Assembly (NCBI GenBank): GCA_964642505.1
Contig: CAZXQY010000003.1
Coordinates: forward strand, 324 to 64,323
Direction of reading: 5' to 3'
Length of the DNA: 64,000 bases
Source: an uncultured Gammaproteobacteria bacterium
Lineage (GTDB): Bacteria > Pseudomonadota > Gammaproteobacteria > Ga0077536
The notes under the pieces are model-generated. The model was not told the origin of the DNA. It did no database searches and was given only the letters and a program-made list of their open reading frames with translations. Positions 43,477 to 61,124 of this stretch are shown here, one piece after another; position 1 is the stretch's first letter, and each line of letters begins with the position of its first letter. The translations under genes were made by a program, and so were the position numbers.

Positions 43477-43893
43477 TCAGGTACTTTCCTTGACGGCAGG
43501 CGCTAATTCCTCAGTTACATTACCTTTATCTACTTGCTTATGTTCAAGTTCACCTTCGAACACTGCCCCCGGTTCTAACTTAAGAAGCGAGTACGCAAGC
43601 CTACCTTTTACGCTAGCAGTGCTGCCTATTTCTAGCTGATGGAGCGCTAGTATGTCTCCCTCAACGGTGCCATAGATTAGAACATAATCGCCCTTTACTT
43701 GCCCCTTTACACTGCCCGTCTCTCCGATCTCAACAACAGCCTTTCCCGTAGCAATAATATCCCCTTCTACTTGTCCCGCAACGAAAACATTATTATCACA
43801 CCTCAGATTGCCTTGGAAAATCGTCCCAAACCCCACTATCGATGTGTCTTTTGATAACTTTTTGAGAGTATTTTTGTAGCGATTTAGAATCAT
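43477..43893 (-). CDS. Bactofilin (DUF583) cytoskeletal protein
   Basis: Repetitive β-helical G/V-rich core (VFVAGQVEGDIIATGKAVVEIGETGSVKGQVKGD...). Confidence 0.8.
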   Translation of the reverse strand: MILNRYKNTLKKLSKDTSIVGFGTIFQGNLRCDNNVFVAGQVEGDIIATGKAVVEIGETGSVKGQVKGDYVLIYGTVEGDILALHQLEIGSTASVKGRLAYSLLKLEPGAVFEGELEHKQVDKGNVTEELAPAVKEST

Positions 43894-43907
43894 TTCACCC
43901 CCCACTC

Positions 43908-44816
43908 TTAAATTTGCCGTAGACTACTTGGTCTAATCGAGGTAAGGCCATCGTCATTAATTATTTTGACCACCCATCCACCAAATTCTTTTGTCGTCTG
44001 CATTAATTTAACGACATTATGGTCACTTATCCCGTAACTAAAAGTACTTCTAAAGACCTTTGAATAAAATATAGGTTGCCCTAAGTAACAGGGAAACTCT
44101 TTAAGAGTTCGGTATATTTGTAAGATTTCGCTCCTGTCATCCAATAAATTAGGGATCACCACCACTGTTGGCAGAAATTCAATCTTTCCACCACTGTTTA
44201 TTTGCGGATTTGGATCAAATAACCTCGATAGAAATTTTTTAGTCGCCGTCAAATCAGCATCCGACGCAGACGTTGGAACGAAGAGATAATTAGCATCTAA
44301 CATGAAAGAATACTCAGCAGGAGTGGTACCAGCCGGAGTATCAAAGAAAACGAAACGACGTTCGCTTTCAGAGGACCGCACATAATCAGTCCTCAAATGT
44401 TGGTAAATTCTAGCATTATTTGGTCCACCCGAAGCCAGTATAAATTCGGGATCCGACACCAAACTAAACTTAGCGTTAACAAATCTGTGCAAAGACTCGC
44501 TAGTTGTAGCCTGTCTATCTAGATCAATAAATTCTATCCGGGAATCAGGTTCTTCGATCGCAAGATTTAGACATGTCATGAACGCAACGGTACTCTTCCC
44601 AACTCCTCCCTTGGAATTAGCAAAAACCACCGAGGTCGCGCCTTTTAACTCATGGCGCCGAAGCTCCTCGCTCCCAACAGAGCCTTGTTCTTCACCGCTT
44701 CCAGATCCGCCACCCGGCTGAACTGGAATCTCGGATACCTCCCTGGTAGCCAGAGAATCAGCGCCGCCCTTACTCTCATTTTGCCGCCCTAACTGTTTAA
44801 GAAATCTATCTAGCAC
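43908..44816 (-). CDS. ParA/MinD-family P-loop ATPase with a Gly/Ser-rich N-terminal extension
   Basis: Deviant Walker A NSKGGVGKST, IDLDRQ, and Walker B VFFDTPAG. Confidence 0.8.
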   Translation of the reverse strand: MLDRFLKQLGRQNESKGGADSLATREVSEIPVQPGGGSGSGEEQGSVGSEELRRHELKGATSVVFANSKGGVGKSTVAFMTCLNLAIEEPDSRIEFIDLDRQATTSESLHRFVNAKFSLVSDPEFILASGGPNNARIYQHLRTDYVRSSESERRFVFFDTPAGTTPAEYSFMLDANYLFVPTSASDADLTATKKFLSRLFDPNPQINSGGKIEFLPTVVVIPNLLDDRSEILQIYRTLKEFPCYLGQPIFYSKVFRSTFSYGISDHNVVKLMQTTKEFGGWVVKIINDDGLTSIRPSSLRQI

Positions 44817-44851
44817 AGCTTTGAACCGGATATTCTGGCGCAGTAATGTCC

Positions 44852-45289
44852 CTATTTGTCACCGTCTGCAGGTTTAGGAGGGCCGCCAGTAGGTTTCATA
44901 TCTACCTTCTGAGCCAGGCGGTTGAGTCTGTCCTCGGAGCTCGCAGCTGATGGAGCATCCCAATCAGTGGATATTTCCCCAACAAGCTTGGCCCCTTCAT
45001 GTGCCTCTATCGAGCCATATGATATTTTTCCTCTAATTTTACCTGTAGACGCAACCGTCAGTTTGCCGGACAGATTTAGACTTTCGTCCACTACGCCCTC
45101 AATCCAAGCAGTCTCACCAGATATATCGCCCGAAACATTACCGCTCTTTCCAACAATGAGGTGCTTTACCTGCACTTTCCCGACCAGACGACCGTCTATC
45201 CTCGCAGTACCTTGTATCGCTAAGGAAGCACCTTCTAATTCCGTCGACTCCCCAACGAAAAACTCATAGTTTTTTTGCTCATCTTTCAT
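44852..45289 (-). CDS. Bactofilin (DUF583) cytoskeletal protein
   Basis: β-helical repeat core (IDGRLVGKVQVKHLIVGKSGNVSGDISGE...) and a Pro-rich C-terminal tail. Confidence 0.8.
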   Translation of the reverse strand: MKDEQKNYEFFVGESTELEGASLAIQGTARIDGRLVGKVQVKHLIVGKSGNVSGDISGETAWIEGVVDESLNLSGKLTVASTGKIRGKISYGSIEAHEGAKLVGEISTDWDAPSAASSEDRLNRLAQKVDMKPTGGPPKPADGDK

Positions 45290-45650: not shown

Positions 45651-47420
45651 CTAACTGCAATCATCTTCAAATTCTCTTTTTTTAACATAATGCCCGGGCG
45701 CCCGTTCCAAAATCAAGCCCCGGTCAACAGGAGTTGCCCGAATCTTTCTTCCACTGTGCGGTTTCACCCACTCTAGCCAACTAATCCACCAACTGAATTG
45801 GTGTTTTTCTTCGTCACAACCATTATCCAAAAACTGTCCTGACGACTCATCTACTTTCAGAATTCGATGGCAATATGCCTTTTCCCCTGGTGGATTAACT
45901 ATCCCTGCAACATGTCCTCCTTCTGTGAGAATAAATTGTGGCGCAACGCCCATCAACTTCGCACCGGCTAAAGTCGACTGCCATGGAGCAATATGGTCTT
46001 CGATTGCAGAAACAAAGCACGTGGGTAGCAACACCTCGTCTAAATCCACCTCGACCCCCCCGACGGATAGGGAATTAGGCGTCACTAGACGATTTTCCAG
46101 GTACATATTCCTTAAATAGGTGCTATGCATTTTAACCGGTAGTCGGGTGGTATCCGAGTTCCAAAACAGAATATCAAAGGCAACAGGATCTTTACCTAAA
46201 AGGTAGTTTTGAACAAAAAAATACCAAATCAAATCCGCAGCCCTTATTAAATCAAAAACGACAGCTAAATCTTTGCCTGCCAAATAGCCTCTCTCCTCCA
46301 TACGATCTTCAATTAGCTCTATATTCTCATCGTCGACGAAGACGCCCAAATCCCCGGGCTCACTAAAATCCAACATAGTCGTGAGGAAAGTAGCGGAATT
46401 CACACGCGGATCACCCTTAGATTGCATGACCGCTAACATGGTGCCGAGTAAGGTACCTCCCAGACAGTAACCCAAAACGTTTATCGACGAAACTGCCGAA
46501 TTTTTTACCACTACCTCGACGGCTTCGAGAAAGCCCTCTTTCCCATAATCGTCAAAGTCGACACTTGACAATTTATCGTCCGGATTTACCCATGAAATAA
46601 CATAAACCGTCAAACCCTGGTTTGTCGCCCACTTTATAAAGGAATTTTCTGGGCTCAAATCCAGGATATAGAATTTATTTATCCAGGGAGGAACAATGAG
46701 AAGTGGTTTTTCATAAACTTCCGAGACTACAGGTTCATATTGAATCAATTGCATCAACCGATTTTGAAAAATAACGGCTCCTTTAGAGGTCGCTATATTT
46801 CTCCCAAGCTCAAAGGCACACTCGTCAACCTTTTTCGGTTTTAAAAACCCTTCTCCAGAACTAAAGTCGCTCAGAAAATTAGTTGCACCCTTTATAAGAT
46901 TCTGCCCTCCACTTTCAAAAGTGGCCCTTAATACCTCTGGATTGGTCAATATGAAATTAGAAGGCGACATCGTTTCAAAATACCTCGCTGAATAAAACTC
47001 TACCTTTCGACGCATCTGATCGTCCAGACCGTCGATTTTGCCAATGGAATCTAGTAGAACCTCAACAATTTGAAGGTAGGTATCACGTATGTATTTGAAG
47101 AAAGGGTTTTCCTCCCAGTCACCGGATTTAAAACGGTTATCCTTTACTACGGATCCCGGCAAGCCCGGCACATTGTCTGTCATAAATCGAAAACCGTCGT
47201 TTCCGTCCGTCAACAATTGAAGGATGGTACGTTGAACAGTCAAACTTTGATCAGGATTTTTCGCCAATAAATCAAAATATTGTCGAAAAGCCGACTTTAT
47301 TCCTAAGATGTCTTCTTCTGACGAAAACCACATATCCGACGATCTTCCTCGTGGTCCCAGAGTTTGATCTGGTTGAAGACTACCCACCTCTGGTTCTTTT
47401 GGTCGCTTATCCGTTCCCAT
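45651..47420 (-). CDS. phaC: Class I poly(3-hydroxyalkanoate) synthase PhaC
   Basis: 589 aa with an α/β-hydrolase lipase box GYCLGG. N-terminal region typical of class I PhaC. Confidence 0.85.
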   Translation of the reverse strand: MGTDKRPKEPEVGSLQPDQTLGPRGRSSDMWFSSEEDILGIKSAFRQYFDLLAKNPDQSLTVQRTILQLLTDGNDGFRFMTDNVPGLPGSVVKDNRFKSGDWEENPFFKYIRDTYLQIVEVLLDSIGKIDGLDDQMRRKVEFYSARYFETMSPSNFILTNPEVLRATFESGGQNLIKGATNFLSDFSSGEGFLKPKKVDECAFELGRNIATSKGAVIFQNRLMQLIQYEPVVSEVYEKPLLIVPPWINKFYILDLSPENSFIKWATNQGLTVYVISWVNPDDKLSSVDFDDYGKEGFLEAVEVVVKNSAVSSINVLGYCLGGTLLGTMLAVMQSKGDPRVNSATFLTTMLDFSEPGDLGVFVDDENIELIEDRMEERGYLAGKDLAVVFDLIRAADLIWYFFVQNYLLGKDPVAFDILFWNSDTTRLPVKMHSTYLRNMYLENRLVTPNSLSVGGVEVDLDEVLLPTCFVSAIEDHIAPWQSTLAGAKLMGVAPQFILTEGGHVAGIVNPPGEKAYCHRILKVDESSGQFLDNGCDEEKHQFSWWISWLEWVKPHSGRKIRATPVDRGLILERAPGHYVKKREFEDDCS

Positions 47421-47531
47421 TGCTGTCTGAACGCTTTAGCTTGATTTCTATTTGATGATCTTGCTTTATCACGACACAGTAAAAACCGCACTATTTTGCA
47501 GGGCGATCCGAAACCAGAAAGCAAATACCAT

Positions 47532-48935
47532 TTATTTTTTTCCACCTAAATAAAGGTCGGTTATTGTTCCGGAAGCAACCTCGGCAGCTAAGCCTATGGT
47601 TTCTACAAGCGTAGGATGAGGATGAATAGTCAATCCGAGATCCTCGAAATCACTTCCCATTTCTAAAGCCAGAGCAATTTCACCGATCAATTCACCGGCA
47701 TTTGCACCCACGATCCCACCACCTATGAGTCGTCCGCCATTTTTTTCAAATAATAACTTCGTAATACCTTCCTGACGTCCCATGGACAAGGAACGTCCAC
47801 TGGCCCCCCACGGAAATACTCCTTTTTTAAATTCTAAATCTGCCCGAAGAGCTTGGTCCTCAGTAAGACCCACCCATGCCAATTCCGGATCGGTGTAGGC
47901 TACCGAAGGAATTGACCGGGGTTCGAATACACTTTTTAATCCGACAGCCGATTCTGCCGCGACTTTCCCTTGACGAGACGCCTTATGGGCCAGCATAGGC
48001 TCACCCAAAACATCTCCAATAGCATAAATGTTAGGCATTGAAGTTTTCAGGCAATTATCCACGGAAATAAAGCCATTTTCAGATAAATTTACCCCCAAAG
48101 TCTCGAGCCCGATTGAATCCGTGTTTGGCACTCGCCCTATCGCCATCAGAATTTTGTCAAAAGCCGCTTTCGCCGGCGCTCCCTGCCCATCGAAAGTTAC
48201 GACGAGAGAATCCGGGTTAGGTTCCACTCCTACTACCCTGACTTCTTTGTAAATGGATTCTACTCTTTTTATAATCGACTTTTCTAAGGGAGCGACCAAA
48301 TCTATATCCGCACCGGACATAAGGTTAGGGGCAATCTCAACTATGGTTACTCGGCTTCCAAGTTCCGCGTATACCGAAGCCATCTCCAAGCCAATGATAC
48401 CCCCTCCTACAATTAATAGCCTTTCGGGAATATCCTTCAAACTTAAAGCTCCTGTCGAATCCATTATCCTAGGATCGTCGGCAGTCCCAGCCAATTTAGT
48501 AGGAAGAGAACCTGTAGCTATTATAGCCTTCTCAAAATTCAATTGAGTAGAGCCACCCATAGACTTGACTGTCAACTGATCAGTACCCGTAAAAAAGCCT
48601 ACTCCAGTCACGACATCAACTTGCCGCTTCTTAGCAAGGGCTCCCAAGCCTTTTGATAGCAGAGAGATCACCGAGTCCTTTTTGCTATTTAATTTATCCA
48701 AATCCAGATTTTTTTCTTCATAATAGACGCCGTAGTCGGCTATATCCCGTACGTCACTAATAACCTTAGCAACATGCAGAAGAGTTTTTGATGGGATACA
48801 ACCTACATTAAGACAAACACCTCCCAATTTGGGGTGCTTTTCCACCAAAGCCACTTTCAGACCAAGATCAGCAGCTCGAAAAGCCGCAGTATATCCTCCG
48901 GGGCCGGAGCCCAAAACCACTAAATCATAATTCAT
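47532..48935 (-). CDS. lpdA: Dihydrolipoyl dehydrogenase (E3)
   Basis: GSGPGGY...GGVCLNVGCIPSK redox-active disulfide motif, NAD-binding GGGIIG, and a C-terminal HPT dimerisation motif. Confidence 0.95.
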   Translation of the reverse strand: MNYDLVVLGSGPGGYTAAFRAADLGLKVALVEKHPKLGGVCLNVGCIPSKTLLHVAKVISDVRDIADYGVYYEEKNLDLDKLNSKKDSVISLLSKGLGALAKKRQVDVVTGVGFFTGTDQLTVKSMGGSTQLNFEKAIIATGSLPTKLAGTADDPRIMDSTGALSLKDIPERLLIVGGGIIGLEMASVYAELGSRVTIVEIAPNLMSGADIDLVAPLEKSIIKRVESIYKEVRVVGVEPNPDSLVVTFDGQGAPAKAAFDKILMAIGRVPNTDSIGLETLGVNLSENGFISVDNCLKTSMPNIYAIGDVLGEPMLAHKASRQGKVAAESAVGLKSVFEPRSIPSVAYTDPELAWVGLTEDQALRADLEFKKGVFPWGASGRSLSMGRQEGITKLLFEKNGGRLIGGGIVGANAGELIGEIALALEMGSDFEDLGLTIHPHPTLVETIGLAAEVASGTITDLYLGGKK

Positions 48936-49113
48936 AAGTCAGCCCATTAATTATTTTGAACACAGAATTGAACATCCAGTAAAGTCTTGTAAGATAACTA
49001 TAGGTTTCCATATCTTAATATCTTTATAGCTAGAAAAATTCGTTAGCACAATTTAATCCCTTGGGGTAACCTTATTAAGAGTGTAAAATTTTTCAACGCC
49101 AGGGATTGTAACC

Positions 49114-49299
49114 GTGAACACCCGAGAAATAAAAATCTTGCCAGAAAACGAAGAAGCCTGCCACTGCGACGGCGGCCAGCTGGGGCACCCTAGGATTAGG
49201 CTCCTTTTCGGGAGTAACAGATACGTAGATTGCTACTATTGCGGACAGAGATTCGCGAAGGCCGGATACTCCGAAAAGACCCAGGAATTACTCTCCTGA
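49114..49299 (+). CDS. Small zf-CHCC-type zinc-finger protein (NDUFS6-like fold)
   Basis: 61-aa protein with a C-H-C...H...C-x2-C pattern (CHCDGG..GHPRI...CYYCGQRF). Confidence 0.5.
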   Translation: MNTREIKILPENEEACHCDGGQLGHPRIRLLFGSNRYVDCYYCGQRFAKAGYSEKTQELLS

Positions 49300-49815
49300 A
49301 TTTGCGACTCCGATATCAACGAGCGGTTTATCCTGACCTCTCGTTTTGAGCCAATCCCTAAGCGCCATCCCGGTTCCAGCATCCCAAGGTTCTACTTTTT
49401 CCACACCCACCCATTTTGCGTCTGCGACTTCGTTTCGATCCAAAGAATAATTATCGCTATCCACCGATACATGGTAGGCAATGATCAGTTCATTCTTTCT
49501 ATAAAATTCGTACATTCCAATATAAGATTCCAGGCGAGCGTCCAGTCCTATTTCTTCTTTAACCTCTCTCAATACAGCTTGCACCGGCATCTCGCCTGAC
49601 TCAACGAACCCAGTAACTAAGCCGTACCAGCTCTCGGGCCAACCCACATTACGCACCAAAAGGATTGATTCTTTGCATTCAACGATAGCGGCCACCACTG
49701 GTATAGGATTACGCCAATTTACGAAACCGCACTTTACATCGGGACATACCATGCGCTCTCGTTCAGACAAGAACATTTCCTCAAGTGCTTTTCCGCAGTA
49801 AGGACAAAAATTCAT
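49288..49815 (-). CDS. NUDIX hydrolase with an N-terminal zinc-ribbon (NudC-like)
   Basis: CPYCG...CPDVKCGF zinc ribbon followed by the Nudix box GFVESGEMPVQAVLREVKEEIGL. Confidence 0.8.
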   Translation of the reverse strand: MNFCPYCGKALEEMFLSERERMVCPDVKCGFVNWRNPIPVVAAIVECKESILLVRNVGWPESWYGLVTGFVESGEMPVQAVLREVKEEIGLDARLESYIGMYEFYRKNELIIAYHVSVDSDNYSLDRNEVADAKWVGVEKVEPWDAGTGMALRDWLKTRGQDKPLVDIGVANSGE

Positions 49816-49880
49816 AATCCCCCAACAATTTGTTTTACTTTTCTAGATATAAATCCATGATAGCATTAATCTTTTTACGG

Positions 49881-52800
49881 TTACCAGACATCAGGATACC
49901 TGGACAGTCGTCTCTTTTTACGTGAGAGTTTGCTCGACCACAAACCCATCAAAAGCCAATCACCCGTATCTCTACGATCAATCACGGCGTCAACATCAAA
50001 GGCGGAGGCGACCGAAACACCCTTCCCCTTCGCATACATGCTTTCAAGTAGACTATCAAAAATCGATTTTCTTTCCCTTTCATTCATCGCACCATCTAGC
50101 TCCTTGCGAAAACCCAATTCCACCGCACCTTCTAAACCCATCGGGCCCATTTCTGAAGTAGGCCACCCTATCGTAAAAAAAGGCTGATGGAAACTACCAC
50201 CTGCCATAGCTTGTGCACCTAGACCATAGCCTTTACGCAAAACAATTGTAAAAAGAGGAACGGATAAATTGGCACTAGCCGTTATCAACCGGGAGCCTCT
50301 ACGCACGGAAGCCGTCTCCTCGCTGGCAGGGCCTACCATGAAGCCTGGAGTATCACATAACGAGATAACCGGCAGGCCAAAGCAATCGCATAATTGAAGA
50401 AACCTCGCCCCCTTCTCTCCCCCTTCGCCGTCGATGGCGCCTCCAAGGTGGGTAGGGTCATTCGCAATCAGCCCAAAAGAATGACCCTCTATTCGCAGTA
50501 GGATAGTAAGCAAACCGATTCCATAATCTCTTCGTAACTCAATAACCGAGCCCTCGTCGGCCAAATTTCTTATTAGCTTTCTGATGTCATATACCCGTAA
50601 TCGGTCCTCAGGGATTATGTGCCTGAGGATTCTTTGATCCGAAAAATCATAATGCTCTAATTTCCCTTGAAAATATCCGAGTATTTTTTTGGCCTTATCG
50701 GTAGCATCTGATTCATCTTTGCATAGCAAGTCGATAACACCATTCTTACTTTGCGTGTCGGACGGTCCGATATCTTCGGATTTGAATTTCCCCAACCCCC
50801 CGCTTTTATCTATCATCGCAGGTCCGGCCAGACCAATATTGGAGTTTTTAGTCGCTATCGTGATATCCGCACACCCGAAAATAACAGCGTTACCAGCGAA
50901 GCACCTACCTGAATTGATCGCTATCCTAGGCGCAATCCCCCCAAGTTGAGGCCAAGTGGCGAACGTCTTTATATCCAACCAACTCATGATTAGATCGTCA
51001 GTATCCACGTCACCGGGTCGACCTCCTCCTCCTTCCGTAAAAAAGACCACAGGAGTCTCCCAGTCACGCGCTAATTCGAAAATTCTATCCTTTTTTTTGT
51101 GGCTATTATGCCCCTGCGTACCGGCCAATACTGTGTAGTCATACGCCAACACGGCACACTTGGCCCTGTCCTCACCAAAATGTGTACTGTTCACGGTTCC
51201 AAAGCCAGCTACCAAGCCATCAGCAGGCGTCGCGATCTGCAGTTCGTCTACACTCCTTCTACGTCTTTGAGCTGCTATCGCCAAAGCTCCGTATTCCAAG
51301 AAACTATCCTCGTCACATAAGTCGTCGACATTCTCGCGCGCAGTCCTCGATCCGATTTTCCTTCGCTTAGCAACCGCCTCACCTCTCTGCTCGTCCATAA
51401 CCAAAGAGTGGCGAAAAATAACTTCCTTCAAATCAGCGCGAATATCGTCCAGATCGATTTTATCGTCACTGTGTATACTTTCGTTCATCCGGCTATCGAC
51501 TGCTAACTCGATGACTGGTTGACCTGTATCTATTACCTCACCCTCGTGTACCTTTATCCGCTTGATTAACCCGGACGCAGGCGCTTTTATTTCGTGATGC
51601 ATTTTCATCGCCTCGACAATTAAAAGCGTCTGTCCTTCCGAAACCACTTGATCTTCTTCTGATGGAATCTTTACTACGTTCCCCCTCAGCTGAGCTTCTA
51701 TCGTAACTAGCCCTGAGCCAGCGATTTTTGAATTTCTAACATCCGACCCGATTCTCTCTTGCTCGCTACCCTTCTTCCGTGAATCTTTTACAATTTCGTC
51801 TATATAAGAGGTCGTGAACTCCGCATTTACCACACCTTGCCGCTTCATAAGCTCCATTAGAAAATCAATATTTGTGTCTACTCCACGGACTTCGAATTCG
51901 GACAGCGCTCTAATGCCTTTACGGAGTAAAGACGACAAATCGCTTTCCAAGTTATGGACGATTAACTTGGCTAAAAGGGAATCAAATTCCCCACTTACTT
52001 CAAAACCCTCACGAACACCTGGGTCTACTCTGATTCCGATACCAAGCGGCGCTCGAAATTTAGACACCACCCCGGTCGACGGAAGAAAACTTCCTGCGGA
52101 ACTAAGTTTTTCCGCATTTATACGCATTTGGACGGCGCTGCCCGCAGGTTTGTCGCGCTTAGTTATCAGAACATCATCTAGCTTTTCACCTAATGCCAAT
52201 TGCAACTGAACTCGCGCCAAATCTATGCCATAAAGCATCTCCGTAATGGTATGTTCGACCTGCAATCTGGCATTTACTTCGATAAAATAGAATCTGCCTG
52301 ATCTTGGATCTACCATGAATTCCACCGTCCCGACACCCCTATATCCAACCGATCGTGCAAGACTCAAAGCGCCATCGAAAAGCTGACTTCTCATCTCTTC
52401 AGGTAGAGAAGGAGCCGGAGCTAACTCGACAATTTTTTGACGATTCCGTTGCAAACTACAGTCTCGCTCGCCTAAATGTTCCACTTGACCATTCCCGTCG
52501 CCTACCACTTGAACCTCAATGTGACGGGCACCTTCAAAAAACTCCTCGATATAAACGTCTCCTGAGCCAAAAGCATGTTTAGCTTCTTCACAAGCCAATA
52601 AAAACGCGGCTTCCAAATCGGTTTCGGCATCGATCACTCGAATACCTCTGCCTCCTCCTCCAGCAACCGCCTTGAGCACAAAAGATTTATTGGAGGGACA
52701 CTTCCGAATATAACTTTCCAAATCACCGGGATTTCGGAGCACGGCTGAACCATCTAATATTGGAAGCCCAACCTTCACGGCCTGAGATCGAGCCGATAAC

Positions 52801-53150
52801 TTATTTCCGAACAGCCTGAGCTGAGAAACGGTCGGGCCCACCCATGTGATACCAGCGTTCTCCATTTGCTCGGCAAAATCGGCACTCTCTGACAAAAATC
52901 CATAACCGGGATGAATAAGATTACAATCGAATTTCTGCGCCGCAGAAAGTATCGCTGACGTATTTAAATAGGCTGCCGCTCCTTGGCCAGAAATTTCCAC
53001 TGAATTTCCCTGCGAGAAAAGCACATGGGATGCAAACCTGTCCGACTCACAATGTACCGCAATAGCTTTCAGATTCAGATCATGTGCCGACTGCAAAACT
53101 CGCAACGCAATTTCGCCTCTATTAGCTACTAGGACCCGAGCATCAGACAT
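49881..53150 (-). CDS. Single-chain multi-domain biotin-dependent carboxylase (biotin carboxylase, then biotinyl/BCCP domain, then carboxyltransferase)
   Basis: N-terminal ATP-grasp BC domain (VLVANRGEIA...), a central biotinylation motif (LLIVEAMKMHHEIKAPASG), and a C-terminal crotonase-superfamily CT domain (acyl-CoA carboxylase β-like). Total length 1096 aa. Confidence 0.85.
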   Translation of the reverse strand: MSDARVLVANRGEIALRVLQSAHDLNLKAIAVHCESDRFASHVLFSQGNSVEISGQGAAAYLNTSAILSAAQKFDCNLIHPGYGFLSESADFAEQMENAGITWVGPTVSQLRLFGNKLSARSQAVKVGLPILDGSAVLRNPGDLESYIRKCPSNKSFVLKAVAGGGGRGIRVIDAETDLEAAFLLACEEAKHAFGSGDVYIEEFFEGARHIEVQVVGDGNGQVEHLGERDCSLQRNRQKIVELAPAPSLPEEMRSQLFDGALSLARSVGYRGVGTVEFMVDPRSGRFYFIEVNARLQVEHTITEMLYGIDLARVQLQLALGEKLDDVLITKRDKPAGSAVQMRINAEKLSSAGSFLPSTGVVSKFRAPLGIGIRVDPGVREGFEVSGEFDSLLAKLIVHNLESDLSSLLRKGIRALSEFEVRGVDTNIDFLMELMKRQGVVNAEFTTSYIDEIVKDSRKKGSEQERIGSDVRNSKIAGSGLVTIEAQLRGNVVKIPSEEDQVVSEGQTLLIVEAMKMHHEIKAPASGLIKRIKVHEGEVIDTGQPVIELAVDSRMNESIHSDDKIDLDDIRADLKEVIFRHSLVMDEQRGEAVAKRRKIGSRTARENVDDLCDEDSFLEYGALAIAAQRRRRSVDELQIATPADGLVAGFGTVNSTHFGEDRAKCAVLAYDYTVLAGTQGHNSHKKKDRIFELARDWETPVVFFTEGGGGRPGDVDTDDLIMSWLDIKTFATWPQLGGIAPRIAINSGRCFAGNAVIFGCADITIATKNSNIGLAGPAMIDKSGGLGKFKSEDIGPSDTQSKNGVIDLLCKDESDATDKAKKILGYFQGKLEHYDFSDQRILRHIIPEDRLRVYDIRKLIRNLADEGSVIELRRDYGIGLLTILLRIEGHSFGLIANDPTHLGGAIDGEGGEKGARFLQLCDCFGLPVISLCDTPGFMVGPASEETASVRRGSRLITASANLSVPLFTIVLRKGYGLGAQAMAGGSFHQPFFTIGWPTSEMGPMGLEGAVELGFRKELDGAMNERERKSIFDSLLESMYAKGKGVSVASAFDVDAVIDRRDTGDWLLMGLWSSKLSRKKRRLSRYPDVW

Positions 53151-53259
53151 ACAATCTTCCTTTAATATCAAGTGGTATAGACTAAGCTAGCTTATCTTCA
53201 CTCGACTTTCAAAATTTCGGGTTATTATAGCCGCCCTCATAACGGACTTAATAATGCGG

Positions 53260-53336
53260 TGGCGCGCCCGGAGAGATTCGAACTCCCGACCACCTGGTTC
53301 GAAGCCAGGTACTCTATCCAGCTGAGCTACGGGCGC
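53260..53336 (-). tRNA. tRNA-Arg (anticodon TCG), CCA encoded
   Basis: The reverse complement folds as GCGCCCG...anticodon loop CUUCGAA...CGGGCGC-G-CCA. The backbone is almost identical to E. coli argV. Confidence 0.85.
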
Positions 53337-53364
53337 GCAGAAGATAAATCATCTATTCACTATT

Positions 53365-53441
53365 TGGCGCGCCCGGAGAGATTCGAACTCCCGACCGCCT
53401 GGTTCGTAGCCAGGTACTCTATCCAGCTGAGCTACGGGCGC
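53365..53441 (-). tRNA. tRNA-Arg (anticodon ACG), CCA encoded
   Basis: Same scaffold as the neighbouring copy, but the anticodon loop reads CUACGAA and there is one variable-loop difference. Confidence 0.85.
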
Positions 53442-53639
53442 TTATTCTAAAATGTGCCATTACTCTCGGTTGCCTGAGATTATCATCGCCATAAAACCCG
53501 CTGTCAAATACTCTAAAAGCAAAGCCAAGAAAAATAAACTTAAGTTCCCGAAGCAACTAATTTTACTACCTAATAACTAGCATCATTGGTCTAGCGGAGC
53601 TACACTCTGCATTATAGAGACAAAGCAAGGGGTAGTTTT

Positions 53640-54398
53640 GTGAGGAAAAACATAGACATTAACTGCGATATGGGTGAAAGCTTTGGCAATTGGATTATGG
53701 GTGACGACGAAGGCATGATGTCTAGGATAACCACTGCGAACGTAGCGTGCGGCTTCCACGCGAGCGATCCGGTAACCATGGTCAAAACTGTGGCACTGGC
53801 TAAAAAACATGATGTTGTCGTGGGCTCACACCCTGGCCTGCCTGATCTTCTCGGGTTCGGTCGCCGGGCTATGAATATTACACCGGAAGATGCTTACGCC
53901 TATATGGTGTATCAAACCGGAGCTCTGGAGGCGACTCTTAAAACGCAAGGGATGAACCTCCATCATGTCAAACCTCATGGGGCTTTTTATTCGATCTTGA
54001 GAGACAACGAAGAAGTAGCATCTGCCGTTGCTGAAGCGATAGCTTCTTTGTCGACCGCACCCATCCTTTATTGGCCCGCTCCGACTTCTGCAGCGCTGCC
54101 CGCTGCGGCAAATAAGTTGGGAGTGAAAGTGGTAGGAGAAATCTATCCCGATCTACAGTACGCGTCTGACGGCTCCTTGATAATTCAACGAGAAAAACAT
54201 TTAACAGACACAGTTTTCGCTTCAAAACAAGTTGAGCGGTACGTTGAAACAGGAAAAGTGGAAGCCACAGATGGAAGCTTGTTGCAGCTGGATGCTGAAA
54301 GCATCTGCATCCATGGGGACGGGCCTAATGCGACCGAAGTGGCCGATGCCATACGAAAAAGGCTACACGATTTGGGCTGTGAAATTAACGCCGCGTGA
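53640..54398 (+). CDS. pxpA: 5-oxoprolinase subunit A (LamB/YcsF family)
   Basis: DINCDMGES...ACGFHASDP...HVKPHGA motifs. GTG start. Confidence 0.85.
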   Translation: MRKNIDINCDMGESFGNWIMGDDEGMMSRITTANVACGFHASDPVTMVKTVALAKKHDVVVGSHPGLPDLLGFGRRAMNITPEDAYAYMVYQTGALEATLKTQGMNLHHVKPHGAFYSILRDNEEVASAVAEAIASLSTAPILYWPAPTSAALPAAANKLGVKVVGEIYPDLQYASDGSLIIQREKHLTDTVFASKQVERYVETGKVEATDGSLLQLDAESICIHGDGPNATEVADAIRKRLHDLGCEINAA

Positions 54399-54430
54399 CG
54401 CTAGGATTCTAATTAAAAAGGCGGATTATT

Positions 54431-55462
54431 ATGAAATTTGGTTTATTGTTTTCACACCAAGTCCCTCCTACCTCTGGGGGGTCTTGGTCAACCCCGTATA
54501 AGGATATGCTTGAATGCCTCCCTTATGCAGAGGAATTGGGATATCAATCCGCTTTTCACGCCACCCACCATGCCCAGAAAGACGGACTCTGCCCGGCACC
54601 TATGGTGGCCTGTGCGGCGGCGGCGGCTGTCACTAAAACCATGAGAATAGGGACCGGTGTATTACTCGTTCCACTCTACGCACCACTAAAATTGGCAGAA
54701 GATATAGCGGTACTAGATAACGTCTCTAATGGCCGGTTCGTGTTTGGCGTCGCTCCGGGCTACGTGGCCAAAGAGTTTGAAGCACACCAGATTCCCAGAT
54801 CAGAAAGAGTGGGCCGATTTGAAGAGGCGCTGGACCTGATGACAATGGCTTGGACGTCAGAGAACTTTGAGTTCAATGGTAAATACTATAAAGTTCCGGA
54901 AACGCAACTAACCCCAAAACCGCAACAGTCTCCCCACCCACCCATTTGGTATGGTGTCTCCGCCACTAATTCCTTGAAAAGAGCCGCTCGTCGCAAGGCG
55001 GTACAAATTATGTCTCCACGACATGGCCCAGAAGAATTGGTCCAGCATTTTAAACCCTACGAAGAAGAGGCCGCCAAAATTGGATGGAAAATTCCTGAAA
55101 GACCAATAATCCGCAACGTATTTGTGGCCGAAACGCATACCAAAGCAGAGGAAATTGCCGGGCCTGCTCTTAAGTACTTGTACACGGAGTTATACGGAGC
55201 GGCCTCCGCAGCAGGGGAAAGGGTCCTCAAAGCTGCGGACGGCTCTATTATCACGGATAAAGATTCAGTCACTTTTGATACCTTCAAAAATCGGTATATT
55301 GTTGGAGACCCCAATTTCGCGATAGAACAACTATCCTTGTATCGCGATGCTGTAGATCCTAGTGAAGTCGTCTGCTGGATGCATTTACCTGGAATAAGCG
55401 GAGCCAACGCAAGAAAATCGATGGAGTTATTCGCGAAAGAAGTGATGCCTCACTTCAGTTGA
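54431..55462 (+). CDS. LLM-class flavin-dependent oxidoreductase
   Basis: Luciferase-like TIM-barrel signature (GRFVFGVAPG...). Confidence 0.75.
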   Translation: MKFGLLFSHQVPPTSGGSWSTPYKDMLECLPYAEELGYQSAFHATHHAQKDGLCPAPMVACAAAAAVTKTMRIGTGVLLVPLYAPLKLAEDIAVLDNVSNGRFVFGVAPGYVAKEFEAHQIPRSERVGRFEEALDLMTMAWTSENFEFNGKYYKVPETQLTPKPQQSPHPPIWYGVSATNSLKRAARRKAVQIMSPRHGPEELVQHFKPYEEEAAKIGWKIPERPIIRNVFVAETHTKAEEIAGPALKYLYTELYGAASAAGERVLKAADGSIITDKDSVTFDTFKNRYIVGDPNFAIEQLSLYRDAVDPSEVVCWMHLPGISGANARKSMELFAKEVMPHFS

Positions 55463-55479
55463 GAGCTCTGGAACACGAG

Positions 55480-56448
55480 TTAAAAAAGGTCACGAATGCG
55501 TTCCAGTCGACCCTCTTCATCAAGCCTCGCCTGAAGAGCCTCTTCCATTGAAACTTTTACAAATTTTACAGGGGTATTTGGTTGTAGTTGTCCAAGAATA
55601 TCCATGTCTGCAGAAATAACCGCTCCGATCTGAAAATAGCCGCCGGCAGACACCGCGTCCCTATGTAATACGATAGGTTCAAGCCCCGAAGGAATTTGAA
55701 CAGAACCATACGGATATGGACTATCAACTATGTTGGAAGGATCTGAACCAGCGCCAAAGGGTTGATCTCTAGGCTCAAACTCCATTGGGCGACCTCCTGA
55801 AAATCGAACTCCCATCCGATCTGCCTCGGTAGAAACTACCCAACGATCTTCAAAAAAGCCCTCCCCCGAGGTTTTTGTCAAACGGTGCCAGAATAAACCT
55901 GGCATAACTCTCAAATTAGCGGCCTCTCCCATGGTGCGTCTTAGCTCTTCTGGAATATATCGGCATTTACTTTTTAGATCACCCTGACCACAATGCAGGA
56001 CATCTTCAGCTACCAGTATTCTACCGTGAAAGCCTCCCAGCTGCCCTACCAAATATGTCGACCGACTGCCCAGCACCAAAGGTACATCTACCCCACCCGA
56101 CACAGCTATATAGATCCGCGCTCCACCCTTGAGGTAGCCAAATTCCAAAACTTGTCCTGCCTTAACTTCGATAGCAGTCCAAGTCTGATGCTCCTTTCCA
56201 TCCAAGCACACGGGAAGGTCAGCCCCAGTGACAGACACGAGGGTATCTGTATCAAACAGTAATCTAGGACCGATGTAGGGGCTCTCTATACAGGCCGCCG
56301 ACTCGTCGTTGCCAACCAAGAGATTAGCCACACGCAACGCGAAGCGATCCATTGCCCCTCCGATAGGAATCCCCAACTGATAATATCCAGGTCTCCCTAG
56401 ATCCTGAATCGTTGCTGCCAATCCTGCTTCCAAAATTTTAATTGCCAT
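55480..56448 (-). CDS. pxpC: 5-oxoprolinase subunit C (KipA/allophanate-hydrolase-subunit-2 family)
   Basis: MAIKILEAGLAATIQDLGRPGYYQLGIPIGGAMD N-terminus and cyclophilin-like fold family. Confidence 0.8.
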   Translation of the reverse strand: MAIKILEAGLAATIQDLGRPGYYQLGIPIGGAMDRFALRVANLLVGNDESAACIESPYIGPRLLFDTDTLVSVTGADLPVCLDGKEHQTWTAIEVKAGQVLEFGYLKGGARIYIAVSGGVDVPLVLGSRSTYLVGQLGGFHGRILVAEDVLHCGQGDLKSKCRYIPEELRRTMGEAANLRVMPGLFWHRLTKTSGEGFFEDRWVVSTEADRMGVRFSGGRPMEFEPRDQPFGAGSDPSNIVDSPYPYGSVQIPSGLEPIVLHRDAVSAGGYFQIGAVISADMDILGQLQPNTPVKFVKVSMEEALQARLDEEGRLERIRDLF

Positions 56449-57313
56449 ATAGGGCACCTATGAGACCAGCATTATATCCATCCCTATCAGCCAAAAAAGC
56501 AGACAAATCAAAACGTATCTCCACTCGGGGTGGCTCGAACAAATTGTTCCGAACCAGATCCACTATATGCTCATATTCTTCCACATCTATAGCACGAAAC
56601 TTTACAATGTCTCCGGTACGGAAAAATACCATCGAACCTTCCAGATAAGATTGATGACAATCGGGATTGAAAATTTGCATAGGGGTTATTCCAAACATTT
56701 GATACCCCCCAGCACCTCGCACGGCATAGATAGCTGTAAAACAACCACCATGCCCAATTGTATGCCTGGGAGTATCAGTTCTTGGCCGGACATATTTGGG
56801 TACTTCAATCTGTCTAGAGCGTTCCACCATTTGGTACAATCCCGGGACGCCGCAAACAAACCCAAGAAGTGAAACAAACCAAGGGGAACCGTGATGGCTT
56901 TCTATAAACTCCGTTACAGATGAAAAACCATTGAGCCTAGCAGCATATTCTAGGTCTGTTGAATCAGGATCTTGATGTCGATCTCTAAAACTATTCATCG
57001 TTTCTCTCGTCCAAGGATCTTCGTAAAAAACTGGCACCTCAACAATCCTCGTGTCTATTGAATTACCAGTTAACCCAGATTCATTATCGATTCTCTTTAT
57101 TTCTTTTAATAATTCTTCCGGGCTAATAAGACCCGGATCAAATCGGACCATATACGTGGTGTTTACCGCGCAAATCTCTGATACTCCCGTAATCTTGTGC
57201 TTTCGTATCAACTCGGCAGCATTCATGCTTTTAAAAAATGCCTCTAAAGACATTTCCTCGGAACACTCCCCTAAAAGGTGTTCATCTGCTCCGAAAGTAA
57301 AACGCGTCTCCAT
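56438..57313 (-). CDS. pxpB: 5-oxoprolinase subunit B (KipI/allophanate-hydrolase-subunit-1 family)
   Basis: AHS1/KipI family. Its 3' end overlaps the pxpC start, consistent with translational coupling. Confidence 0.75.
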   Translation of the reverse strand: METRFTFGADEHLLGECSEEMSLEAFFKSMNAAELIRKHKITGVSEICAVNTTYMVRFDPGLISPEELLKEIKRIDNESGLTGNSIDTRIVEVPVFYEDPWTRETMNSFRDRHQDPDSTDLEYAARLNGFSSVTEFIESHHGSPWFVSLLGFVCGVPGLYQMVERSRQIEVPKYVRPRTDTPRHTIGHGGCFTAIYAVRGAGGYQMFGITPMQIFNPDCHQSYLEGSMVFFRTGDIVKFRAIDVEEYEHIVDLVRNNLFEPPRVEIRFDLSAFLADRDGYNAGLIGALYGN

Positions 57314-57410: not shown

Positions 57411-59300
57411 TTGAAAGAAAATTTGCCATCGCTTCAGTTATTTAATATCTTATTGGACAAAATCACCGAGCGCCATCCCCGTTGTGTAGGAAATGGAGGG
57501 CGCCAGCAAAGGACACCGCAAGGGGGACTGTCGAGCGTGAAGCCGACAAATGTACGTGATCCAGATTACTTCCACAAGGTAGTAGATTGCCAGTGGGCTT
57601 GCCCTGCTCATACTCCCGTGCCGGAATATATCCGTCTGATCGCTGAAGAACGGTACGCAGACGCTTATATGGTTAACTGGGAATCGAATGTTTTCCCAGG
57701 AATACTTGGTAGGACTTGCGACAGACCCTGTGAGCCCGCCTGCCGGCGAGGGAGAGTTGAAGAAAAACCCGTAGCAATATGCAGACTGAAAAGGGTCGCT
57801 GCGGATTTCAAAGGGGATATTTCAGAGCGACTTCCTAGAGAGCCGAATACAAAAAACAATCATAAAATAGCTTGTGTGGGCGGCGGCCCCGCCTCACTCA
57901 CCGTCGCTCGAGACCTCTCTAGAATAGGTTATAGAGTTACAATCCTCGACTCTGAAAGGCAACTGGGAGGTATGATAAGAAGCCAGATTCCCAAGTTCCG
58001 TCTGCCGGAAGAAATTATAGACGAAGAGATAAACTACGTCTTGAAACTGGGTATAAATTTCGAAAGCCGTTGGGTGGAATCTCTGCAGCACTTGCTGGAA
58101 GAAGATTATGACGCGATTTTCGTGGGTACAGGCGCTCCACGTGGTAAAGACCTTGAGATACCTGGACATGTGGAGGCCGCGGACAATATACATATAGGCA
58201 TTGACTGGTTATCTTCTGTCGCGTTTGGTCATATCTCTCGGATTGGAAAAAGAGTCATCGTTCTCGGTGGCGGCAACACGGCTATGGACTGTTGCCGCTC
58301 CTCAATGCGCTTAGGGGGGGAATCCGTAACGGTAGTTGTTAGATCAGGTTTTGAAGAAATGAAAGCCTCCGAGTGGGAGAAAGAAGATGCCATGCATGAG
58401 GGAATCCCGATTCGGAACTACCTAGTTCCTAAAGCCTTCTTAATCGACCAGGGCACTCTCTCTGGCATGCAATTTGAGAAAGTTAGAGCCGAGTATATCG
58501 GCAAAAAAAGAAAGCTTATACCCACTGGAGAACCAGACGAAATCATTGCGTGCGATGACGTGTTAATTGCCATCGGTCAGGAAAATGCTTTCCCTTGGAT
58601 AGAGAGAGATATTGGAATCGAATTCGACGATTGGGGACTACCAAAACTGGACCCGAACTCTCTACAATCCACTCGTCCAGAAATCTTCTTCGGTGGAGAT
58701 GCCGCGTTCGGCCCCGAGAATATAATTTGGGCTGTAGCTCATGGACATGAGGCGGCTATTTCTATCGATAAATTTCTGACTAATAAGTCAGTTAAGAAAC
58801 GTCCAAAACCAAATGTTCAGATAGAACCCCAGAAAATGGGAATTCATGAATGGAGCTATGATAACGACATTTCCAGTGGTCCGAGACAAAAAGTGCCCCT
58901 GGAGCGACTAAAAAAAGCTCTCTCAAACATAAAAGTCGAAGTGGAAAAAGGTTTTCCCACTTCGACTGCGTGGACAGAAGCGCAAAGATGCTTAAATTGC
59001 GATGTGCAAACCGTTTTCTCTGACAATCTTTGTATAGAATGTGATGCTTGTACAGATATTTGCCCTACCGATTGTATCAACTTCACTGATAACGCTGCAG
59101 AAAATAATCTCCGGAAACAGTTGCGAGCACCTGCCGATGACTTAGATCAAGATCTATATGTATCAGGTAAACTTCCAACCGGATTAGTAATGGTGAAAGA
59201 CGAAAACGTTTGCCTCCATTGTGGCCTATGCGCCGAACGATGCCCCACGGGAGCTTGGGATATGAAAAAATATCTGATCAACATCGAACAGGTGCGCTAA
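57411..59300 (+). CDS. GltD/SudA-family FAD/NAD(P)H oxidoreductase fused to a C-terminal 2x[4Fe-4S] ferredoxin domain (candidate electron-transfer partner of KorAB)
   Basis: N-terminal Cys cluster like the glutamate synthase small subunit (NVFPGILGRTCDRPCEPAC), a dinucleotide fold (KIACVGGGPASL), a second GGGNTAMD motif, and two CxxCxxCxxxCP ferredoxin motifs at the C-terminus. TTG start. Confidence 0.75.
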   Translation: MKENLPSLQLFNILLDKITERHPRCVGNGGRQQRTPQGGLSSVKPTNVRDPDYFHKVVDCQWACPAHTPVPEYIRLIAEERYADAYMVNWESNVFPGILGRTCDRPCEPACRRGRVEEKPVAICRLKRVAADFKGDISERLPREPNTKNNHKIACVGGGPASLTVARDLSRIGYRVTILDSERQLGGMIRSQIPKFRLPEEIIDEEINYVLKLGINFESRWVESLQHLLEEDYDAIFVGTGAPRGKDLEIPGHVEAADNIHIGIDWLSSVAFGHISRIGKRVIVLGGGNTAMDCCRSSMRLGGESVTVVVRSGFEEMKASEWEKEDAMHEGIPIRNYLVPKAFLIDQGTLSGMQFEKVRAEYIGKKRKLIPTGEPDEIIACDDVLIAIGQENAFPWIERDIGIEFDDWGLPKLDPNSLQSTRPEIFFGGDAAFGPENIIWAVAHGHEAAISIDKFLTNKSVKKRPKPNVQIEPQKMGIHEWSYDNDISSGPRQKVPLERLKKALSNIKVEVEKGFPTSTAWTEAQRCLNCDVQTVFSDNLCIECDACTDICPTDCINFTDNAAENNLRKQLRAPADDLDQDLYVSGKLPTGLVMVKDENVCLHCGLCAERCPTGAWDMKKYLINIEQVR

Positions 59301-59310
59301 TTAAATAATA

Positions 59311-61116: not shown

Positions 61117-61124
61117 TCCTAAAA

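What the first reader, a model, noticed from the sequence alone, without database searches (positions are those of the whole stretch)
49114..53171. Single-polypeptide biotin carboxylase / BCCP / carboxyltransferase enzyme with NUDIX and zf-CHCC neighbours
A 1096-aa protein contains all three functional units of a biotin-dependent acyl-CoA carboxylase in the order BC, then a biotinyl domain (EAMKM), then CT. Most bacterial carboxylases are multi-subunit. Single-chain bacterial forms, such as the long-chain acyl-CoA carboxylase described from Mycobacterium and Pseudomonas, are rare and their substrates are mostly unknown. Immediately downstream on the same strand is a Zn-ribbon NUDIX hydrolase, which could hydrolyse a CoA or nucleotide by-product. 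A convergent zf-CHCC mini-protein overlaps its 3' end.
Basis: partly seen in the sequence, partly recalled or inferred. Interest (0 to 1): 0.6.

Follow-up and report, generated by a model that had tools for sequence, protein, structure and literature searches.

The report
Ordinary single-chain long-chain acyl-CoA carboxylase homolog

Summary
One uninterrupted minus-strand ORF (49881..53150; 1089 aa from the likely ATG) carries BC, a biotinyl domain (EAMKM) and a crotonase-type CT domain. A Zn-ribbon NUDIX gene lies 65 bp downstream. A real, conserved zf-CHCC gene converges on it with a 12-bp overlap.

The carboxylase is not a new architecture.
- It aligns end to end with the crystallised Mycobacterium avium LCC (4RCN; E 5e-287, 45.6% identity, largest gap 12 residues).
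- Its CT half scores 587 bits against LCC but at most 209 bits against any PCC, MCC, GCC or 12S CT.
- All BC catalytic residues, the biotinyl lysine and both LCC-type CT oxyanion loops are intact.

The family is not rare. At least 120 full-length clusters from several phyla match it, and 545 representatives at 50% identity match an LCC-specific linker.

The NUDIX link is not supported. Adjacency is limited to close relatives. The NUDIX/zf-CHCC/Lpd/PhaC block also occurs without LCC, and nine other LCC loci have no NUDIX box within their sometimes short flanks. The NUDIX protein lacks the CoA-pyrophosphatase and NudC motifs.

Verdict: a new member of a known kind, of low interest. The physiological substrate remains unknown, as it does for the whole family.

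The parts
49881..53150 (-). Single-chain LCC-family biotin-dependent acyl-CoA carboxylase CDS (1089 aa plus stop).
   Evidence: It matches 4RCN at E 5.3e-287, collinear over residues 4-1067. An AAGGAAG Shine-Dalgarno sequence precedes the ATG at 53150.
51795..53141 (-). Biotin carboxylase (ATP-grasp) domain, residues 4-452.
   Evidence: Pfam. One search shows that K116, K159, the GGGGR loop, E201, H209, K238, E276, E288, N290, R292, Q294, V295, E296 and R338 (E. coli AccC numbering) are all conserved.
51504..51677 (-). Biotinyl (BCCP) domain, residues 492-549. The biotin-accepting Lys516 sits in E-A-M-K-M (codon 51603..51605).
   Evidence: One search shows M-K-M invariant in 120 of 120 family members.
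49962..51362 (-). Carboxyltransferase domain (crotonase fold, N and C subdomains), residues 597-1063. It has LCC-type loops EGGGGRPGD (706-714), GRCFAGNA (748-755) and RKGYGLGAQAM (972-982).
49288..49815 (-). Zn-ribbon plus NUDIX hydrolase, 175 aa, 65 bp downstream of the carboxylase. It is a syntenic neighbour and co-transcription is possible.
   Evidence: The Nudix box GFVESGEMPVQAVLREVKEEIGL is intact. The NuCoA and NudC-specific motifs are absent.
49114..49299 (+). zf-CHCC mini-protein gene (61 aa), convergent with the NUDIX gene and overlapping its 3' end by 12 bp.
   Evidence: It is called as a PF10276 gene in L024 and L027.
53260..53441 (-). Two tRNA-Arg genes (anticodon TCG at 53260-53336, ACG at 53365-53441) directly upstream of the carboxylase on the same strand.
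   Evidence: The same pair sits in the same position in L001 and L016.
53479..53507 (-). Strong sigma-70-like promoter match (TTGACA, 17 nt, GATAAT; 11 of 12) upstream of the tRNA pair. It could also drive read-through into the carboxylase gene.
   Evidence: This is a consensus match only.

Best explanation

**Mechanism, inferred from homology.**
- The N-terminal ATP-grasp BC domain uses MgATP and bicarbonate to carboxylate biotin attached to Lys516 of the central BCCP domain.
- The BCCP domain swings to the C-terminal crotonase-fold CT domain.
- CT transfers the carboxyl group to the alpha-carbon of an acyl-CoA, giving a 2-carboxyacyl-CoA (alkylmalonyl-CoA).
- By analogy with MapLCC, the enzyme should be a homohexamer with broad C2-C16 activity and the lowest Km for long chains.

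**Shown here:** the architecture, end-to-end homology, intact catalytic and biotinylation motifs, and placement of the CT domain in the LCC clade.

**Inferred only:** biotinylation, oligomeric state, substrate range and physiological role.

**Neighbours.** The NUDIX and zf-CHCC genes belong to a lineage-specific synteny block (NUDIX, zf-CHCC, Lpd, PhaC). They are not a dedicated partner system for the carboxylase.
For: - **Homology to the prototype.** Full-length phmmer match to 4rcn_A, E 5.3e-287 and 958 bits, collinear over 4-1067 against 3-1070. Identity is 45.6% over 1088 columns and the largest gap is 12 residues.
- **CT clade.** The CT half scores 587 bits against LCC and 566 against the Deinococcus single-chain carboxylase CT (5fif). 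It scores at most 209 bits against 12S, PCCβ, ACC β, GCCβ or MCCβ. In an NJ tree the window CT falls inside the LCC radiation, with 12S as outgroup.
- **BC domain.** All BC catalytic residues are conserved.
- **Family motifs.** MKM and both CT loops match family-invariant positions in 120 homologs and are identical in MapLCC and DrSCC.
- **Architecture.** All 120 homologs share the same five Pfam domains and are 1077-1159 aa long.
- **Biochemistry of the family.** C2-C16 activity, a Km for palmitoyl-CoA 350-fold lower than for acetyl-CoA, and a homohexamer, as summarised in PMC6491548 citing Tran et al. 2015. The Pseudomonas homolog PA1400 is biotinylated (PMC9894557).
- **Neighbourhood.**
Against: - No experiment exists on this protein or on any member of its marine gammaproteobacterial clade.
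- Identity to the characterised enzyme is only 45.6%, so substrate preference may differ. The position equivalent to the PccB specificity residue D422 is Q here and in 102 of 120 homologs, but M in MapLCC.
- The primary LCC paper could not be read, so the acyl-pocket residues were not compared.
- The 65-bp gap with no predicted terminator leaves co-transcription with the NUDIX gene possible in this genome.
Confidence: 0.88

Rival explanations
1. The carboxylase and the NUDIX hydrolase (with zf-CHCC) form a functional module. For example, the NUDIX enzyme might hydrolyse CoA, an acyl-CoA or a nucleotide by-product of carboxylation.
For: - The genes share a strand, the gap is 65 bp and no terminator is predicted between them.
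- The adjacency is kept in L001 and L016, and the genes stay close in L003 and L004.
- In L025 a BC-less BCCP-CT homolog lies upstream of the NUDIX gene.
Against: - L001 and L016 share whole-region synteny, from PxpA to the ParA-like ATPase gene (window 43908-44816), so their adjacency is uninformative.
- In L003, L004 and L025, 1.9-3.7 kb of signalling genes separate the pair.
- No Nudix box was found in nine other LCC loci (L002, L005, L012-L014, L018-L020, L022). The downstream flank is 2 kb or less in L002, L005 and L012.
- NUDIX and zf-CHCC occur with no LCC within 5 kb upstream in L024 and L027, and the NUDIX gene occurs with neither LCC nor zf-CHCC in a Bacteroidia genome.
- The protein has no NuCoA motif and falls below the NCBIfam NudC cutoff (80.5 against 158 bits).
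Confidence: 0.08
2. The enzyme acts physiologically as a short-chain carboxylase, for example the cell's acetyl-CoA or propionyl-CoA carboxylase, not as a long-chain enzyme.
For: - MapLCC has comparable kcat from C2 to C16.
- The window holds no accA, accD or full-size accB. The only other biotinyl ORF is the 80-aa gene at 63671-63913.
- The residue at the D422-equivalent position differs from MapLCC.
Against: - A 64-kb window says nothing about accABCD elsewhere in the genome.
- The CT domain is far closer to LCC than to any ACC or PCC CT.
- In the only family member assayed, the Km strongly favours long chains.
Confidence: 0.1
3. The fused ORF is an assembly or frameshift artefact that joins separate accC, accB and pccB genes.
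For: None found.
Against: - The frame is a continuous 3270-nt ORF.
- Both linkers align with 4RCN.
- The same fusion appears in at least 120 clusters and in independent single-cell genomes, metagenome bins and Tara assemblies.
Confidence: 0.01
4. It is a pyruvate carboxylase. This is the top NCBIfam hit, and it is the label that homologs such as PA1400 carry in some databases.
For: NF009554 pyruvate carboxylase scores E 1.9e-161. PA1400 is called pyruvate carboxylase in PMC9894557.
Against: - The hit covers only the BC domain (residues 4-453) and scores 539 bits against a cutoff of 965.
- The C-terminal half is a crotonase-type acyl-CoA CT (PF01039), not the TIM-barrel CT of pyruvate carboxylase.
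Confidence: 0.01

Closest known systems
Single-chain long-chain acyl-CoA carboxylase, MapLCC (PDB 4RCN; Tran et al., Nature 2015) and its Pseudomonas aeruginosa homolog PA1400/PA14_46320
   Same: - Same BC-BCCP-CT order in one chain of about 120 kDa, with no BT or central domain.
- Collinear end-to-end alignment at 45.6% identity.
- Identical LCC-type CT loops (EGGGGRPGD, CFAGNA, RKGYGLGA).
- Intact MKM and BC catalytic residues.
   Different: - The source is an uncultured marine gammaproteobacterium, not an actinobacterium or a pseudomonad.
- The PccB-D422-equivalent position is Q here and M in MapLCC.
- There are small indels in BC and in the BC-BCCP linker.
- No biochemical data exist for this protein.
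Deinococcus radiodurans single-chain carboxylase (PDB 5FIF for CT, 5H80 for BC)
   Same: Same family. CT scores 566 bits with about 52% identity, BC scores 383 bits, and the D422-equivalent residue is Q in both.
   Different: In the NJ tree it branches outside the proteobacterial and actinobacterial LCC radiation.
Multi-subunit PCC, 12S transcarboxylase, MCC and GCC β subunits
   Same: Homologous crotonase-fold CT with the same two oxyanion loops at aligned positions, and the same BC and BCCP chemistry.
   Different: - CT scores are only 105-209 bits, with about 32% identity to 12S.
- The canonical GPCAGG and YGG(A/S/G)Y motifs are replaced by GRCFAG and YGLGA.
- In those enzymes BC-BCCP and CT are separate polypeptides, and the α subunit carries a BT domain.
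Eukaryote-like multidomain ACC of actinobacteria (SACE_4237; PMC6491548)
   Same: A single chain with BC, BCCP and CT domains.
   Different: That enzyme is about 200 kDa, has an ACC central domain, is a homodimer and takes short-chain substrates only. Its CT belongs to a different clade. The window protein is 1089 aa with no central domain.
Mycobacterial multi-subunit 'LCC' complex (AccA3/AccD4/AccD5/AccE5; 2025-26 cryo-EM papers)
   Same: It shares the name and carboxylates long-chain acyl-CoA.
   Different: It is a hetero-oligomer of separate BC-BCCP, CT and ε subunits. AccD4 and AccD5 score only 170-180 bits against the window CT (chains of 9t97). It is not the same family.

Membership tests
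Single-chain LCC family (MapLCC/4RCN type) | One polypeptide of about 120 kDa with the order BC, then BCCP, then CT | tested here: met
   domains in that order within 1089 aa; homologs are 1077-1159 aa with the same domains.
Single-chain LCC family (MapLCC/4RCN type) | End-to-end collinear homology to the crystallised prototype | tested here: met
   E 5.3e-287 over residues 4-1067 against 3-1070; 45.6% identity, largest gap 12 residues.
Single-chain LCC family (MapLCC/4RCN type) | CT domain belongs to the LCC clade, not to PCC, MCC, GCC or ACC | tested here: met
   587 bits against LCC and at most 209 bits against other CTs. NJ tree. LCC-specific loop variants.
Single-chain LCC family (MapLCC/4RCN type) | No BT or central domain; short BC-BCCP and BCCP-CT linkers | tested here: met
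   no additional Pfam domain, and only about 40 residues between Biotin_carb_C (ends at 452) and Biotin_lipoyl (starts at 492). The linkers align with 4RCN. That this feature defines LCC rests on my own knowledge of the family; the primary paper was not readable.
Single-chain LCC family (MapLCC/4RCN type) | Biotinylation motif and actual biotinylation | tested here: inconclusive
   The E-A-M-K-M motif with K516 is present, and MKM is invariant in the family. Actual modification needs an avidin blot; it has been shown for the homolog PA1400 only.
Single-chain LCC family (MapLCC/4RCN type) | Catalytically competent BC active site | tested here: met
   all 16 core catalytic positions, including the GGGGR loop, match E. 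coli AccC. Only three peripheral positions (202, 204, 236) differ, and these vary across the family.
Single-chain LCC family (MapLCC/4RCN type) | Domain-swapped homohexamer | not testable with these tools
   Needs SEC-MALS, cryo-EM or crystallography.
Single-chain LCC family (MapLCC/4RCN type) | Preference for long-chain acyl-CoA | not testable with these tools
   Known only for the prototype. The acyl-pocket residues could not be compared because the primary paper is not held.
Pyruvate carboxylase | Full-length match above the NCBIfam cutoff, and a TIM-barrel (HMGL-like) CT domain | tested here: not met
   539 bits against a cutoff of 965, covering residues 4-453 only; the CT is PF01039.
NudC (NAD+ diphosphatase), for the NUDIX neighbour | NCBIfam equivalog score, the N-terminal domain and the SQPWPFPxS motif | tested here: not met
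   80.5 bits against a cutoff of 158, matching only profile positions 103-238; motif absent. Only the Zn ribbon and the Nudix fold are shared.
CoA pyrophosphatase Nudix (NuCoA, PROSITE PS01293), for the NUDIX neighbour | The motif [LIVM](2)-x-R-[SA]-x(3)-R-x(3)-G-x(3)-F-P-G-G upstream of the Nudix box | tested here: not met
   the regular expression found no match. The pattern was recalled from memory.
zf-CHCC (PF10276), for the mini-ORF | Pfam gathering score and conserved Cys/His ligands | tested here: met
   33.5 bits against a cutoff of 27. C18, H25, C40 and C43 are invariant in seven genomes.

The most novel reading that the evidence does not exclude
In this marine gammaproteobacterial lineage the LCC gene belongs to a conserved block (LCC or a BC-less BCCP-CT derivative, then NUDIX, convergent zf-CHCC, Lpd and PhaC). 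That block may mark a still-unknown physiological role of LCC tied to storage-lipid or polyhydroxyalkanoate and acyl-CoA metabolism. The repeated loss of the BC domain in sister lineages would then show that the CT-BCCP half can work with a BC supplied in trans, or as a decarboxylase or transcarboxylase.
Probability: 0.08. Interest if true: 0.4.

Novelty: new member of a known kind. Interest (0 to 1): 0.15.

Why it matters
It matters little as a discovery. The architecture, structure and in-vitro activity of this family were published in 2015, and the window protein conforms to the family at every position tested.

Three points have modest value:
- The idea that single-chain bacterial acyl-CoA carboxylases are rare is wrong. 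They form hundreds of sequence clusters across several phyla.
- The physiological substrate and role of the family remain open. Gene neighbourhoods vary too much to resolve this.
- BC-less BCCP-CT derivatives nested within this clade are a small, testable evolutionary curiosity.

Tried and rejected
- **Primary LCC paper.** I tried to read Tran et al. 2015 by DOI and by PMC id. It is not held, so the family's properties are cited second-hand or from memory.
- **Deinococcus paper.** A search for the Deinococcus single-chain carboxylase paper found nothing.
- **Source organism.** The organism is known only as an uncultured marine gammaproteobacterium. Its closest genome records are the single-cell genomes AG-365-F14 and AG-453-E14, with LCC 63-64% identical.
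- **Newer functional assignment.** A literature search found none. The 2025-26 'LCC' papers concern the unrelated multi-subunit mycobacterial complex.
- **Chimera or frameshift.** Considered and rejected.
- **Pyruvate carboxylase.** Considered and rejected.
- **Link to PxpB/PxpC.** These genes lie 2.3 kb upstream and are homologs of the urea-carboxylase CT. Nothing supports a link to the carboxylase. They belong to a PxpABC 5-oxoprolinase set, and the arrangement is syntenic only in L001 and L016.
- **Structure prediction.** Not run, because a 958-bit match to a solved structure makes it redundant.


Full report
**1. Observation**

The region holds one long minus-strand ORF, 49881..53171 (1096 aa from the first TTG). 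The likely start is the ATG at 53150, which is preceded by AAGGAAG. That gives 1089 aa, the same length as the identical public protein P0001.

Pfam finds five domains in order:

| Domain | Residues |
|---|---|
| Biotin_carb_N | 4-110 |
| CPSase_L_D2 | 157-326 |
| Biotin_carb_C | 341-452 |
| Biotin_lipoyl (EAMKM at 513-517) | 492-549 |
| Carboxyl_trans | 597-1063 |

- A 175-aa Zn-ribbon/NUDIX gene (49288..49815) lies 65 bp downstream on the same strand.
- A 61-aa zf-CHCC ORF (49114..49299, plus strand) converges on it and overlaps its end by 12 bp.
- The zf-CHCC ORF is a real gene. It passes the Pfam threshold and is conserved in six other genomes, with its Cys/His ligands invariant.

The only corrections are the strand and the probable start.

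**2. What the large protein is**

A search of all PDB sequences gives a full-length, collinear match to 4RCN, the single-chain long-chain acyl-CoA carboxylase of Mycobacterium avium subsp. paratuberculosis (E 5.3e-287, 958 bits, residues 4-1067 against 3-1070). Realignment of the sequence recovered from that output gives 45.6% identity over 1088 columns, with no gap longer than 12 residues.

The next matches are the CT (5FIF) and BC (5H80) domains of a second single-chain bacterial carboxylase.

The CT half alone separates the families clearly:

| Compared with | Score (bits) |
|---|---|
| LCC (4RCN) | 587 |
| 5FIF | 566 |
| 12S transcarboxylase, PCCβ, AccD4/5/6, ACC β | 147-209 |
| GCCβ | 134 |
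| MCCβ | 105-125 |

In a neighbour-joining tree of CT halves rooted on 12S, the window protein sits inside the LCC radiation.

**3. Is it catalytically intact?**

- **BC domain.** I aligned it with E. coli AccC, taken from NC_000913. It keeps K116, K159, the GGGGR loop, E201, H209, K238, E276, E288, N290, R292, Q294, V295, E296 and R338.
- **First CT oxyanion loop.** The canonical GPC-A-G-G aligns with G-R-C-F-A-G (window residues 748-753).
- **Second CT oxyanion loop.** The canonical RKAYGG(A/S/G)Y aligns with R-K-G-Y-G-L-G-A (972-979). These are not degenerate motifs. They are identical in the enzymatically active MapLCC and in 5FIF, and they are invariant or nearly so in 120 family members.
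- **Biotinyl motif.** M-K-M is invariant in 120 of 120 members.
- **Specificity position.** The position equivalent to the PccB specificity residue D422 (numbering from my own knowledge of Diacovich et al. 2004) is Q here and in 102 of 120 homologs, and M in MapLCC.

**4. Is the family rare?**

It is not. In the 5.8-billion-protein collection, the best 120 clusters are all 1077-1159 aa and 45-70% identical. All 120 carry the five core Pfam domains and 118 align over 97% or more of the query. They come from:
- Alpha-, Beta-, Gamma- and Deltaproteobacteria;
- Bacillota and Myxococcota;
- Dehalococcoidia and Verrucomicrobiota.

They are usually named 'carboxyl transferase domain-containing protein'.

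A 98-aa segment specific to LCC (the BCCP-CT linker and the start of CT, residues 553-650) finds 545 representatives at 50% identity with E<=1e-10, and 978 with E<=1e-3. Many of these are metagenomic fragments.

The statement that these enzymes are rare appears in the literature (PMC6491548), but sequence space does not support it.

**5. Neighbours**

Among 17 related genome loci, tblastn with the window's proteins gives this picture:
- **L001 and L016** (LCC 63-64% identical) reproduce the window's order: LLM, PxpA, two tRNA-Arg genes, LCC, NUDIX, zf-CHCC, Lpd, PhaC, bactofilin and ParA-like ATPase. The tRNA pair is confirmed.
- **L003 and L004** have 1.9-3.2 kb of signalling genes between LCC and NUDIX. 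In L004 these are response-regulator genes.
- **L002, L005, L012, L013 and L014**, plus four more distant homologs looked up individually (L018, L019, L020, L022), have no Nudix box within their flanks. The downstream flanks of L002, L005 and L012 are 2 kb or less.

The neighbours of those distant homologs are unrelated to one another. They include an acyl-CoA dehydrogenase with a MaoC hydratase and a Zn-ADH, cytochrome oxidase genes, flagellar genes, an acyl-CoA ligase and an autotransporter.

The reverse test points the same way. The NUDIX protein belongs to a widespread family of about 173 aa. In L024 and L027 it lies with the convergent zf-CHCC gene and, further on, Lpd (followed by PhaC in L024), with no LCC in the 5 kb upstream. 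In a Bacteroidia genome it has neither neighbour.

The NUDIX protein has an intact Nudix box and a C4 ribbon. It lacks the NuCoA motif and the NudC-specific motif, and it falls below the NudC cutoff.

LCC and NUDIX may be co-transcribed here, because no terminator is predicted in the gap. Even so, the association reflects lineage synteny and is not a conserved functional pairing.

**6. Mechanism**

The mechanism is inferred from the family:
- BC uses ATP and bicarbonate to make carboxybiotin on K516.
- The BCCP domain translocates to CT.
- CT carboxylates the alpha-carbon of an acyl-CoA.

[quoted passage not shown] 2015). From my memory of that paper's abstract, the domains are swapped between monomers, and a Pseudomonas knockout alters the use of some carbon and nitrogen sources. 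I found no later work that assigns a physiological pathway. The Pseudomonas homolog PA1400 has been shown to be biotinylated.

**7. Verdict**

The protein is a well-preserved, uncharacterised member of a known and common family, from an uncultured marine gammaproteobacterium. It is a new member of a known kind and of low interest.

The side observations are listed under 'noticed in passing':
- BC-less derivatives of this protein;
- the conserved NUDIX/zf-CHCC/Lpd/PhaC block;
- a small PRK07051-type BCCP gene at the window's end.

Noticed in passing
L006-L011 (e.g. L008:5983-7812 +) and L025:1-1318: Several gammaproteobacterial MAGs encode a two-domain BCCP+CT protein of about 605-615 aa with no BC domain. 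No BC lies within 6 kb in L006-L011. It is 72-73% identical to the window's CT half. In an NJ tree these proteins nest inside the full-length marine LCC clade, which suggests secondary loss of BC. In L025 such a protein lies about 3.7 kb upstream of the NUDIX gene, roughly where LCC lies in L003 and L004.
   Followed up: partly
window 45651-49815; L024, L025, L027: A conserved gene block recurs in gammaproteobacterial genomes with or without LCC upstream. Its order is NUDIX, convergent zf-CHCC, then in some genomes SRPBCC, a GcvH-like gene and peptidase C13, then a stand-alone dihydrolipoyl dehydrogenase and a class I PHA synthase. The zf-CHCC gene may relate functionally to the GcvH-like and Lpd genes instead of to the carboxylase.
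   Followed up: partly
window 53260-53507 (-): Two tRNA-Arg genes (anticodons ACG and TCG) sit directly upstream of the carboxylase behind an 11-of-12 sigma-70 consensus promoter. The arrangement is conserved in L001 and L016. The carboxylase might be transcribed by read-through from the tRNA operon.
   Followed up: partly
window 63671-63913 (+): A stand-alone 80-aa biotinyl-carrier-like gene matches NCBIfam PRK07051 (122.5 bits against a cutoff of 87). Its motif is E-V-M-K-N instead of E-A-M-K-M. It follows a GT9 glycosyltransferase-like gene, and its downstream partners lie beyond the window end.
   Followed up: partly
window 43477-45289 (-): Two bactofilin genes flank a ParA/MinD-like ATPase gene. 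The bactofilin at 44852-45289 is 96-97% identical to its counterparts in L001 and L016, whereas neighbouring proteins are only 54-77% identical. That is unusually strong conservation.
   Followed up: no
window 53640-57313: The 5-oxoprolinase genes are split. pxpA (+) is followed by a luciferase-like monooxygenase gene (+), while pxpC and pxpB lie on the opposite strand. PxpB and PxpC score well below their equivalog cutoffs (60 against 146 bits, and 211 against 500), so they may be a divergent PxpBC-like pair.
   Followed up: no
LCC family alignment (P0001-P0120): In this family the CT domain is consistently more conserved than the BC domain. For example, window against P0002 gives CT 84% and BC 62%, and against P0003 gives 80% and 56%. 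I would have expected BC to be the better conserved domain in biotin enzymes (my expectation, not tested). The pattern is in line with BC being dispensable in some lineages.
   Followed up: partly
L014:6001-9261 (Ottowia beijingensis): The LCC homolog is split into three overlapping tblastn segments. It is either a frameshifted pseudogene or carries long-read assembly errors.
   Followed up: no
window 57411-62180 (+): A gene for a DPD/GltD-like Fe-S flavoprotein is followed by genes for the alpha and beta subunits of a 2-oxoacid:ferredoxin oxidoreductase (POR/KOR-like), in what is presumably an aerobic marine bacterium.
   Followed up: no
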